64,000 nucleotides of DNA from Escherichia coli (lineage in GTDB: Bacteria > Pseudomonadota > Gammaproteobacteria > Enterobacterales > Enterobacteriaceae), in NCBI RefSeq assembly GCF_009931435.1, contig NZ_CP043414.1. One strand, given 5' to 3'. Position 1 is the stretch's first letter. Every line of letters begins with the position of its first letter. Both the position numbers and the translations under genes were made by a program. Below are positions 42,381 to 42,842 of this stretch, piece after piece. The notes under the pieces are model-generated. The model was not told where the DNA came from, did not search any database, and was given only the letters and a program-made list of their open reading frames with translations.

Positions 42381-42842
42381 TTGAAGATGGCTAAATCCCG
42401 TTTCACAGATAAGCAAATTGCTGAAATTTTACAGCGGTCAAAAGAGGGGGCATCTAATAAGGAGCTTTGTGAACACTATCAATTTAGCGTTAACACGCTG
42501 CGGCGCTGGCAAGAACAGCACGCTGACGGCATCAGAAGCGAATTAAAAAAAATAGAATCTAAAGCACAGATCGTCTTTCTGCTTTTCATTGCTATCGTCA
42601 TTATACTCACGCTTATATTTGGTAAACCTACAGGTGGATGGGCAATACCGCCTTTATTACTCTATTGTGTTTATTATATCCGCCTGTATCGCAACATCTC
42701 CGCCAGACATATAAAAAAAGAAGACATTTTTCTCTCTCGTTCTGTTAATAACAGCTATAGCGCCCTTTATAATTTGAGCTGGACGTTTATTTGTTTTTTT
42801 ATTTTTGCAGTAATCTATTTTTTTATTCAGGTGTTTTCGTAA
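42381..42842 (+). CDS. Hypothetical protein with N-terminal transposase-like helix-turn-helix and C-terminal hydrophobic segments
   Basis: N-terminus KQIAEILQRSKEGASNKELCEHYQFSVNTLRRWQ; C-terminal half hydrophobic and encoded by very AT-rich DNA; coding status uncertain. Confidence 0.4.
   Translation: MKMAKSRFTDKQIAEILQRSKEGASNKELCEHYQFSVNTLRRWQEQHADGIRSELKKIESKAQIVFLLFIAIVIILTLIFGKPTGGWAIPPLLLYCVYYIRLYRNISARHIKKEDIFLSRSVNNSYSALYNLSWTFICFFIFAVIYFFIQVFS

What the first reader, a model, noticed from the sequence alone, without database searches (positions are those of the whole stretch)
42381..42842. Small HTH-plus-membrane ORF encoded by AT-rich DNA between ridA and mgtA
A 153-aa ORF with a transposase-like helix-turn-helix N-terminus and a hydrophobic C-terminal half sits in the convergent gap between ridA and mgtA. 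The second half of the coding DNA is strikingly AT-rich compared with its neighbours. It could be a small inserted element remnant or a strain-specific gene.
Basis: seen in the sequence. Interest (0 to 1): 0.35.

Follow-up and report, generated by a model that had tools for sequence, protein, structure and literature searches.

The report
Membrane-anchored HTH protein mislabelled as transposase
The small gene between ridA and mgtA is a real, old enterobacterial gene (the counterpart of Salmonella STM4457) for a DNA-binding-type domain anchored in the inner membrane; databases call it a transposase but it is not one, most E. coli including K-12 have lost it, and its function is untested.

Summary
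A 151-aa ORF (ATG 42387 to stop 42842) lies between ridA and mgtA. It has an N-terminal IS3-OrfA-type helix-turn-helix (Pfam HTH_Tnp_1, E 8e-9), and its hydrophobic C-terminal half is encoded by 35% GC DNA.

The gene is variable in E. coli: 442 of 5426 complete genomes carry it, and 4677 have a K-12-type 205-bp REP-containing spacer instead. It is not an inserted-element remnant:
- It has no catalytic domain, no terminal repeats and a single copy.
- Orthologues lie directly downstream of ridA in E. albertii, Citrobacter freundii-complex and Salmonella (STM4457). Named homologues also occur in E. marmotae, Shigella, Klebsiella and Serratia.
- dN/dS is 0.15-0.25 in both halves, and dS is similar to pyrI and ridA.
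- Flanks are 98-99.8% identical to K-12 up to the spacer in carrier strain M8.

K-12 therefore shows the derived, loss state. Predicted topology is HTH in the cytoplasm, three membrane helices, and a conserved positively charged cytoplasmic loop. My best reading is an uncharacterised transmembrane one-component-type DNA-binding regulator, probably co-transcribed with ridA. That function is inferred, not shown. Interest is modest: this is a systematic misannotation and an unstudied family.

The parts
41934..42320 (+). ridA (context): the upstream gene to which the ORF stays linked in every genus examined
42333..42363 (+). 13-bp-stem hairpin after the ridA stop. No U-run follows, so it is not a canonical intrinsic terminator. 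K-12 keeps a hairpin of diverged sequence at the equivalent position.
   Evidence: fold -27.7 kcal/mol for 42321-42390, z -4.3; I1; alignments
42366..42385 (+). 7-bp stem-loop presenting or partly occluding the Shine-Dalgarno sequence (GGAGG 42375-42379), directly before ATG 42387
   Evidence: in the Citrobacter sequence 3 of the 7 stem pairs change on both sides and stay paired; only six sequences, so the support is weak
42387..42842 (+). Coding sequence, 151 aa plus stop; product identical to RefSeq WP_001130089.1, which is annotated 'transposase'
   Evidence: dN/dS 0.15-0.26
42390..42539 (+). Residues 2-51: three-helix HTH of the IS3-OrfA type (Pfam HTH_Tnp_1); the part most conserved between genera (54-72% identity)
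42545..42552 (+). A8 homopolymer in the linker (codons L-K-K-I), found only in Escherichia; frameshifted or stopped alleles occur exactly here
   Evidence: P0013; L007
42570..42620 (+). Predicted membrane helix 1 (residues 62-78)
   Evidence: KD 3.5; AlphaFold helix 35-78
42642..42689 (+). Predicted membrane helix 2 (residues 86-101); less hydrophobic here (KD 1.2), and KD ranges 0.7-2.6 across homologues, highest in P0017 and P0021
42690..42782 (+). Conserved, net-positive loop (residues 102-132, motif R-x-I-S-x-[RK]-[HF]-I-x-K-E-x-I-x-L-[SA]-R ... S-W), predicted cytoplasmic
   Evidence: K+R 5-7 against D+E 1-3 in all 11 homologues; R102, R118 and W132 invariant
42783..42836 (+). Predicted membrane helix 3 (residues 133-150); C-terminus predicted periplasmic
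42844..42875 (.). Hairpin between the two converging stop codons (ORF stop 42840-42842, mgtA stop 42887-42889); folds on both strands, with no U-run on either
   Evidence: -12.7 kcal/mol on +, -17.2 on -; I6
42887..45583 (-). mgtA (context): convergent neighbour here, but not a constant neighbour in other lineages
   Evidence: mgtA is displaced or absent in L012, L007 and L010

Best explanation
The ORF is a genuine, vertically inherited protein-coding gene. It is the Escherichia orthologue of Salmonella STM4457 and belongs to a small family, named so far only from Enterobacterales genera, that annotation pipelines call 'transposase' only because of its N-terminal HTH.

It encodes a bitopic-style regulator architecture. 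A cytoplasmic IS3-OrfA-type helix-turn-helix (residues 2-51) runs through a charged helix into three membrane helices. A conserved basic cytoplasmic loop lies between helices 2 and 3, and almost nothing is exposed to the periplasm.

The most likely mode of action is that of a transmembrane one-component DNA-binding regulator. The HTH would bind a specific DNA site while tethered to the inner membrane, and its activity would be set by the membrane segment or the cytoplasmic loop rather than by a periplasmic sensor domain. It is probably expressed by read-through from the ridA transcript, since only a 66-nt hairpin-filled spacer precedes it, with translation tuned by a small stem-loop around the Shine-Dalgarno sequence.

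Shown here: gene reality, selection, synteny, domain content, and absence of transposase features. Inferred: topology, DNA binding, regulatory role, and co-transcription. K-12 and about 86% of complete E. coli genomes have replaced the gene with REP elements.
For: Gene reality:
- No open frame of equal length appeared in 5000 shuffles.
- dN/dS is 0.15-0.26 overall and 0.10-0.35 in each half separately, with Fisher p from 1e-4 to 7e-9.
- The exact window protein and the exact M8 allele are each recorded on at least 1000 contigs.

Ancestry:
- The gene sits directly after ridA in E. coli, E. albertii, Citrobacter and Salmonella, whatever follows it.
- dS of the ORF (0.18-0.37) resembles pyrI and ridA for the same strain pairs.
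- M8 flanks are 98-99.8% identical to K-12 right up to the spacer.

Architecture:
- Pfam finds HTH_Tnp_1 only.
- The AlphaFold model has pLDDT 76, with helices 8-19, 24-31, 35-78, 80-105 and 126-150.
- The positive-inside pattern is conserved in 11 homologues.
- The HTH, including the S-T-L-R-R-W recognition-helix motif, is the most conserved region.
- The architecture is retained at 41% identity in members that are not next to ridA.

Fit to a known class:
- It meets the operational definition of transmembrane transcription regulators: a DNA-binding domain plus at least one TM helix.
- About 57% of such proteins have no other recognisable domain, and 27% have three or more TM regions.
- HTH_Tnp_1 accounts for 45 of 50,302 predicted members (PMC10269533).
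Against: - There is no experimental evidence of expression, membrane insertion or DNA binding, and I found no paper on STM4457 or the RefSeq accessions.
- There is no conserved partner gene or conserved candidate operator. The palindrome upstream differs completely in Salmonella, so it looks like an RNA hairpin rather than a binding site.
- The gene has been lost from most E. coli, and truncated or frameshifted alleles are common, so its function is dispensable.
- dN/dS is about tenfold higher than for ridA and pyrI.
- Low GC3 suggests weak expression.
- HTH domains can bind proteins instead of DNA.
- Helix 2 is only moderately hydrophobic in this allele, so a two-helix topology is not excluded.
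Confidence: 0.5

Rival explanations
1. Decaying relic: an ancient fusion of an IS3-family orfA 5' fragment to AT-rich DNA. It is still an open frame but has no present function, and it is being lost lineage by lineage.
For: - The HTH is of the IS3 OrfA type.
- An A8 run sits where IS3 elements carry their A-rich frameshift site (that comparison is from my own knowledge).
- The gene is absent from about 92% of complete E. coli genomes.
- There are many truncated or frameshifted alleles and an internal deletion in WB61.
- GC3 is low.
- dN/dS is about ten times that of its neighbours.
Against: - dN/dS is significantly below 1 in both halves.
- The architecture is conserved from Escherichia to 41%-identical members in other contexts.
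- The A8 run is Escherichia-specific.
- The nearest IS3 OrfA hits are only 35-40% identical and cover the HTH only.
- Intact alleles dominate among carriers.
- There are no IS ends.
Confidence: 0.17
2. Membrane adaptor in which the HTH binds a protein rather than DNA, as RodZ's cytoplasmic HTH binds MreB. It would anchor or modulate a cytoplasmic or membrane partner, possibly the neighbouring Mg2+ ATPase MgtA in the way small membrane proteins such as MgtS and MgtR do.
For: - The architecture is an HTH plus a membrane anchor with no sensor domain.
- The cytoplasmic loop is conserved.
- The gene is adjacent to mgtA in Escherichia and Salmonella.
- The RodZ and MgtS/MgtR precedents are from my own knowledge.
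Against: - Linkage is to ridA, not mgtA. Citrobacter has a TRAP transporter in between, and two Escherichia lineages keep the ORF after losing mgtA.
- Distant members sit next to cheV.
- The basic recognition-helix motif (L-R-R-W) that typifies DNA-binding OrfA proteins is conserved.
Confidence: 0.13
3. Domesticated OrfA acting against mobile DNA: a membrane-tethered copy of an IS3-type end-binding domain that titrates or mislocalises IS3-family ends or phage DNA, giving transposition immunity or exclusion.
For: - The HTH family is the one that IS3 OrfA proteins use to bind IS ends (family knowledge; Pfam hit).
- There is a weak PADLOC hit to a short 'DrmC' model, over the HTH only (E 6e-4).
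Against: - There is no defence-island context, because the neighbours are core metabolic genes.
- No PADLOC or PHROGs match extends beyond the HTH.
- The gene is absent from plasmids and phages except for misfiled chromosomal DNA.
Confidence: 0.06

Closest known systems
Salmonella enterica STM4457 and its RefSeq 'transposase' homologues (E. coli WP_001130089.1 and WP_001118337.1; named homologues in E. albertii, E. marmotae, Citrobacter freundii/portucalensis/youngae, Klebsiella aerogenes and Serratia sp.)
   Same: Same family and, where I checked the locus (Escherichia including E. albertii, Citrobacter, Salmonella), the same position directly downstream of ridA. Length is about 148-151 aa there (131-161 aa among the remoter members). 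HTH_Tnp_1 is followed by three hydrophobic helices and the conserved loop motif.
   Different: Identity to the window protein is 84-99% within Escherichia, 52-56% to Citrobacter and Salmonella, and 41-47% to the Klebsiella aerogenes, Serratia sp. and metagenomic members. The Escherichia alleles are much more AT-rich (GC3 34-38% against 49-53%) and carry the A8 run. None has a described function.
IS3-family OrfA proteins (for example IS911 or IS3 OrfA; Pfam PF01527)
   Same: The N-terminal three-helix HTH with the S/T-x-x-T-L-x-R-W recognition helix. Pfam E is 8e-9, and identity to IS3-family orfA genes over residues 1-59 is 35-40%.
   Different: There is no orfB/DDE (rve) domain, no inverted repeats, no target duplication, a single copy and a fixed chromosomal position. 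A three-helix membrane module replaces the OrfA C-terminus.
Transmembrane transcription regulators (TTRs) such as BcrR of Enterococcus faecalis, ToxR/TcpP of Vibrio and CadC of E. coli
   Same: A cytoplasmic N-terminal DNA-binding domain joined to membrane helices in one polypeptide. By my recollection of Gauntlett et al. 2008 (cited in PMC10269533, not read here), BcrR likewise has several TM helices and no large external sensor domain. The class definition and list are from PMC10269533.
   Different: The DNA-binding domain is HTH_Tnp_1, not the OmpR-type winged helix of ToxR, CadC and TcpP, nor (by my recollection) an XRE-type HTH as in BcrR. There are three TM helices, against four in BcrR by my recollection and one in ToxR and CadC. 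No target operon is linked to it, and no function has been shown.
K-12-type ridA-mgtA spacer (REP/BIME)
   Same: It occupies exactly the same interval between the ridA and mgtA stop codons, and a ridA 3' hairpin is retained.
   Different: It is 205 bp of unrelated sequence with two REP-like palindromes and no trace of the ORF. It is also a target for IS621 insertion in at least one strain.

Membership tests
IS3-family transposase / insertion sequence (the current database label) | DDE (rve) catalytic domain or an orfB | tested here: not met
   Pfam hits are HTH families only. The NCBIfam transpos_IS3 model scores 16.1 bits against a cut-off of 160. Only 44 bp separate the stop codon from mgtA.
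IS3-family transposase / insertion sequence (the current database label) | Terminal inverted repeats and target-site duplication | tested here: not met
   The repeat finder on 42250-42960 returned only the two hairpins and A/T-run matches.
IS3-family transposase / insertion sequence (the current database label) | Multiple copies or variable positions | tested here: not met
   The median is 1 place per genome (443 places in 442 genomes), and the gene lay between ridA and mgtA in all five records inspected. The gene is syntenic across genera.
IS3-family transposase / insertion sequence (the current database label) | N-terminal HTH_Tnp_1 domain | tested here: met
   PF01527, E 8.4e-9, 36 bits against 24.1, residues 2-51.
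STM4457-like family (HTH_Tnp_1 plus three membrane helices) | Full-length homology with the same domain order | tested here: met
   Profile search: full-length members at E from 1e-35 to 1e-72. Alignments A3 and A6. Salmonella orthologue at 59% identity over residues 1-138.
STM4457-like family (HTH_Tnp_1 plus three membrane helices) | Position directly downstream of ridA (Escherichia, Citrobacter, Salmonella) | tested here: met
   This does not hold for remoter members.
Transmembrane transcription regulators (operational definition of PMC10269533) | A recognised DNA-binding domain | tested here: met
   HTH_Tnp_1. This domain is on that study's list, with 45 of 50,302 TTRs.
Transmembrane transcription regulators (operational definition of PMC10269533) | At least one predicted transmembrane region | tested here: met
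   Hydropathy 2.3-3.5 for helices 1 and 3 and the AlphaFold helices. This is prediction only; TMHMM was not available.
Transmembrane transcription regulators (operational definition of PMC10269533) | Binds DNA and controls transcription from the membrane | not testable with these tools
   Needs EMSA or ChIP, fractionation, and a deletion transcriptome.
ToxR/CadC/TcpP-type regulators | OmpR-type winged-helix domain (Trans_reg_C), a single TM helix and a periplasmic sensor domain | tested here: not met
   No Trans_reg_C hit. Three helices and external loops of 7 residues or fewer.
   The HTH is of the HTH_Tnp_1 type and no HTH_3/XRE hit appeared. There are three helices, and the neighbours are ridA and mgtA. 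The resemblance is one of architecture only.
Known anti-phage defence proteins (PADLOC) and phage protein families (PHROGs) | Significant match beyond the HTH | tested here: not met
   There was only a weak HTH-only hit to a short 'DrmC' model (E 6e-4) and HTH-only PHROG hits.

The most novel reading that the evidence does not exclude
The STM4457-like proteins could be a domesticated IS3-OrfA DNA-binding domain recruited as a new class of membrane-tethered regulator. It would sense the bilayer or a cytoplasmic ligand through its three helices and basic loop, and control genes from the membrane, perhaps tied to ridA/pyrBI or Mg2+ physiology. Its presence/absence polymorphism would then rewire regulation between E. 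coli lineages.
Probability: 0.2. Interest if true: 0.55.

Novelty: new variant of a known kind. Interest (0 to 1): 0.3.

Why it matters
- The label 'transposase' attached to this protein in all the named database records seen here (E. coli, Shigella, E. albertii, E. marmotae, Citrobacter, Salmonella, Klebsiella, Serratia) is wrong in the functional sense. That inflates counts of mobile elements and hides a conserved membrane protein.
- If the protein is a membrane-tethered regulator, it would add a DNA-binding domain type (IS3 OrfA) not represented among the characterised transmembrane regulators, and would be an example of transposase-domain domestication in bacteria.
- The locus shows that K-12 is the derived state. 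An ancestral gene was replaced by REP elements, which in turn attract IS621. This is relevant when K-12 is used as the reference for 'backbone'.
- None of this touches a long-standing open question, so the practical value is mainly correct annotation and a defined, easily testable candidate.

Tried and rejected
- **Recent IS remnant:** rejected. There is no DDE domain, ends or duplication, and the gene is single-copy and syntenic across genera.
- **Horizontal import explaining the AT-richness:** not supported. dS matches the flanks, and M8 flanks are typical E. coli right up to the spacer. However, low GC3 remains unexplained in Escherichia, because the Citrobacter and Salmonella orthologues are not AT-rich.
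- **Upstream palindrome as operator:** rejected as unsupported. It is conserved between Escherichia and Citrobacter but entirely different in Salmonella, and K-12, which lacks the gene, keeps a hairpin there.
- **Programmed -1 frameshift at the A8 run:** rejected. The run is absent outside Escherichia and the -1 product is not conserved.
- **Functional link to mgtA:** weakened by Citrobacter and by lineages lacking mgtA.
- **Searches that gave nothing useful:**
  - PADLOC and PHROGs.
  - PDB sequence profile.
  - Foldseek against PDB: only generic HTH matches, E above 1.
  - Rfam on 42200-43000.
  - Five literature searches for the accessions, STM4457, its neighbours, or the architecture.
- **Technical failures and limits:**
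  - afdb50 was not available.
  - The UMN026 accession is not in the collection, so I did not map phylogroups.
It says nothing about absence elsewhere.
  - The Yersinia 115-aa relatives lack the HTH, sit in another context and are only 22-30% identical. I treat them as remote relatives of the membrane module only.

Full report
**1. The observation**

The window carries pyrB, pyrI and ridA on the + strand and mgtA on the - strand. A 566-bp spacer (42321-42886) separates the ridA and mgtA stop codons. Almost all of that spacer is one ORF, 42381-42842.

The first in-frame start is a TTG. However, ATG 42387 lies 7 nt after a GGAGG, and it is the start RefSeq uses for the identical gene in strain 2014C-3075 (WP_001130089.1, 151 aa).

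An open frame of this length is not expected by chance in DNA of this composition. None of 5000 shuffles reached it.

Pfam places HTH_Tnp_1 on residues 2-51 (E 8.4e-9) and finds nothing else above threshold. The second half is strongly hydrophobic and AT-rich: 34.7% GC, against 43.6% for the first third and 48-54% for the four neighbouring genes. Third-position GC is 38% against 57-63%.

**2. Not a transposase or IS fragment**

- The NCBIfam IS3 transposase model scores 16 bits against a cut-off of 160.
- There is no room for an orfB. Only 44 bp lie before the mgtA stop.
- No terminal inverted repeats or direct duplications flank the ORF.
- The sequence occurs at a median of one place per genome that has it (443 places in 442 genomes).
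- In the plasmid and phage collections the only full-length matches are misfiled or chromosome-derived DNA. The nearest true IS3 orfA genes are 35-40% identical over the HTH only.

**3. Distribution within E. coli**

Megablast of the spacer finds it in 442 of 5426 complete genomes. It comes as two alleles: 43 genomes at 99% identity or more to the window, and 399 at about 92.8%. In the five records I opened it lies between ridA and mgtA. One of those records is an odd 94-kb 'plasmid' that carries the whole bdcR-treC chromosomal block.

The K-12 spacer is 205 bp, contains two REP-type palindromes and shares nothing with the ORF. A K-12-type spacer is present in 4677 genomes. Further variants exist:
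- an internal deletion of the ORF in WB61;
- an IS621 insertion in the REP-type spacer.

**4. Which state is ancestral**

Homologues annotated 'transposase' occur in E. albertii, E. marmotae, Shigella, the Citrobacter freundii complex, C. youngae, Klebsiella aerogenes and Serratia sp..

The gene lies immediately after ridA in three further settings:
- E. albertii;
- Citrobacter, where a TRAP transporter then separates it from mgtA;
- Salmonella, where the record itself maps it to LT2 locus STM4457, between STM4458 (ridA) and STM4456 (mgtA).

Two Escherichia lineages have lost mgtA, or mgtA through treC, but keep ridA and the ORF.

Synonymous divergence of the ORF between strains (0.18-0.37) is in the range of pyrI and ridA for the same pairs. 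In M8 the flanks are 98-99.8% identical to K-12 right up to the spacer.

The simplest reading is an ancestral gene of the Escherichia-Salmonella-Citrobacter group that was deleted or replaced by REP elements in most E. coli. The window strain itself is 4-5% diverged from both K-12 and M8 over 30 kb, so it is an outlying Escherichia lineage that has kept the gene.

**5. Is it a functional gene?**

dN/dS by Nei-Gojobori is 0.15-0.26 for all 15 pairs among six alleles. It is similar for the HTH part (0.10-0.30) and the membrane part (0.16-0.35). The excess of synonymous change is significant in each half (p from 1e-4 to 7e-9).

The pairs are not independent and the gene is short. Constraint is also about ten times weaker than on ridA and pyrI.

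The exact window protein and the exact M8 protein are each on at least 1000 contigs, so intact alleles dominate. Truncated and frameshifted alleles are nevertheless frequent. Several break at an A8 run (42545-42552) that is specific to Escherichia.

A profile search of 1.84 billion representatives found only 49 proteins at E 1e-3 or better. Full-length members go down to 41% identity and keep the same architecture, and some sit beside cheV rather than ridA. Conservation of architecture outside the ridA context argues for a working protein, not an accident of one locus.

**6. Anatomy and likely mechanism**

AlphaFold, run on a 19-sequence alignment, gives pLDDT 76. It models a three-helix HTH whose third helix continues as a long helix (35-78) into the first membrane segment. 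Helices 80-105 and 126-150 follow, with a low-confidence stretch at 111-123.

Hydropathy supports helices 1 and 3 strongly. Helix 2 is only moderately supported in this allele, and support across homologues is mixed, strongest in P0017 and P0021.

In all 11 aligned homologues the loop between helices 1 and 2 is 7 residues or fewer with no more than one basic residue. The loop between helices 2 and 3 has 5-7 K/R against 1-3 D/E. By the positive-inside rule this gives the N-terminus in, loop 2 in, and the C-terminus out.

Between genera the HTH is the most conserved part (54-72%), including the S-T-L-R-R-W recognition helix. The cytoplasmic loop is next (42-52%), and the membrane helices are least conserved.

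This is the layout of a transmembrane one-component regulator. The protein meets the operational definition used in the survey of such proteins:
- 56% of them are single-pass and 27% have three or more TM regions;
- about 57% have no domain other than the DNA-binding one;
- HTH_Tnp_1 accounts for 45 of 50,302 (PMC10269533).

Among the characterised examples listed there, the closest in architecture, by my recollection, is BcrR (an HTH plus several TM helices and no external sensor domain). The HTH type and helix number differ, so this is an analogy and not membership.

Upstream, a strong hairpin without a U-run follows ridA (42333-42363). A 7-bp stem-loop encloses the Shine-Dalgarno sequence (42366-42385). 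No promoter-like site lies in the 66-nt spacer; the nearest is upstream of ridA at 41868-41896. Read-through from ridA is therefore the likeliest source of mRNA. That is inference.

**7. What remains unknown**

- No target DNA, signal, partner or phenotype is known.
- Defence, phage, PDB sequence, PDB fold and Rfam searches returned nothing beyond the generic HTH.
- No paper in the library mentions STM4457 or the accessions.

The rivals I keep open are a dispensable relic under residual constraint, a RodZ-like protein-binding adaptor, and an anti-mobile-DNA role for a domesticated OrfA domain.

**8. Verdict**

The finding is real but fairly ordinary. It is a conserved, uncharacterised, mis-annotated accessory gene that K-12 happens to lack. 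The defensible novelty is a rare type of predicted transmembrane regulator built on a transposase-derived HTH. I score interest at 0.3.

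Noticed in passing
window 42366-42385: A small stem-loop (UUCAACC / GGUUGAA) has the Shine-Dalgarno sequence in its loop and 3' arm, directly before the ATG. In the Citrobacter sequence three of its seven pairs change on both sides and stay paired; the Salmonella sequence breaks most of them. It may tune translation, but there are too few sequences to judge.
   Followed up: partly
window 42545-42552: An A8 run lies between the HTH and the first membrane helix and is found only in Escherichia. Frameshifted (P0013) and stop-containing (L007) alleles break exactly here. This is a mutational hot spot, or a hot spot for sequencing errors.
   Followed up: partly
L003 (NZ_AP023207.1, 'plasmid' pMTY18781-2, 93.8 kb); also CP061270.1 (1.2 Mb 'plasmid'): Records labelled as plasmids carry the whole chromosomal block tabA-bdcR-bdcA-yjgH-pyrLBI-ridA-ORF-mgtA-treRBC. 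They are either assembly or labelling artefacts or large chromosome-derived replicons.
   Followed up: no
L021 (OR850934.1) and OR845502.1 in the phage collection; L020 (AFYI01000007.1): Two 'UNVERIFIED_ORG' phage records of 2-5 kb, and a 501-kb Salmonella Infantis contig filed among phages, contain the Salmonella-type STM4457-like gene (L020 also shows the full ridA-STM4457 region). This is host DNA, not phage. One of the records is labelled as an E. coli O157:H7 phage.
   Followed up: partly
L026 (NZ_CM146018.1) 1639-3122: In a strain with the REP-type spacer, an IS621 (IS110 family) copy sits between ridA and mgtA. The spacer is therefore a hot spot of structural change: gene, REP, REP plus IS, or deletion.
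   Followed up: partly
L007 5376-5500 and L010 4457-5136: Escherichia-like lineages in which mgtA (L007), or mgtA plus treR-treB-treC (L010), is missing while ridA and the ORF are retained. In L007 the ORF has a stop at the A-run.
   Followed up: partly
window 27000-58000: The window strain is only about 94-97% identical to K-12 and to E. coli M8 over most of 30 kb, dropping to 78-92% around 35500-37500 (the yjgL region in K-12). It is probably an outlying Escherichia lineage. The same ORF allele cluster includes a protein from strain STEC_7v.
   Followed up: partly
window 42745-42773: A sigma-70-like site (TTAATA-17-TATAAT) lies inside the 3' end of the ORF on the + strand and points into the 3' end of mgtA. 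It is in AT-rich DNA, where such matches are expected by chance.
   Followed up: no
window 27521-27715 (-), 45677-45792 (-), 56331-56408 (-), 62562-62638 (-), 16425-16506 (-): Rfam gathering-score hits elsewhere in the window: Ysr276 antisense RNA, the Mg2+ riboswitch in the mgtA leader, two naRNA4 (REP-derived) elements, and a tRNA.
   Followed up: no
window 42746-42768 and 42900-42922: A 23-nt direct repeat at 78% identity, with one copy in the ORF and one in the 3' end of mgtA. The WB61 internal deletion ends next to the first copy. This is probably chance.
   Followed up: no
L019 3300-4720 (Yersinia kristensenii): Upstream of the HTH-less Yersinia relative there are several fragmentary ORFs resembling a broken MacB-type ABC transporter permease. 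Downstream there is a 410-aa protein without Pfam hits.
   Followed up: no
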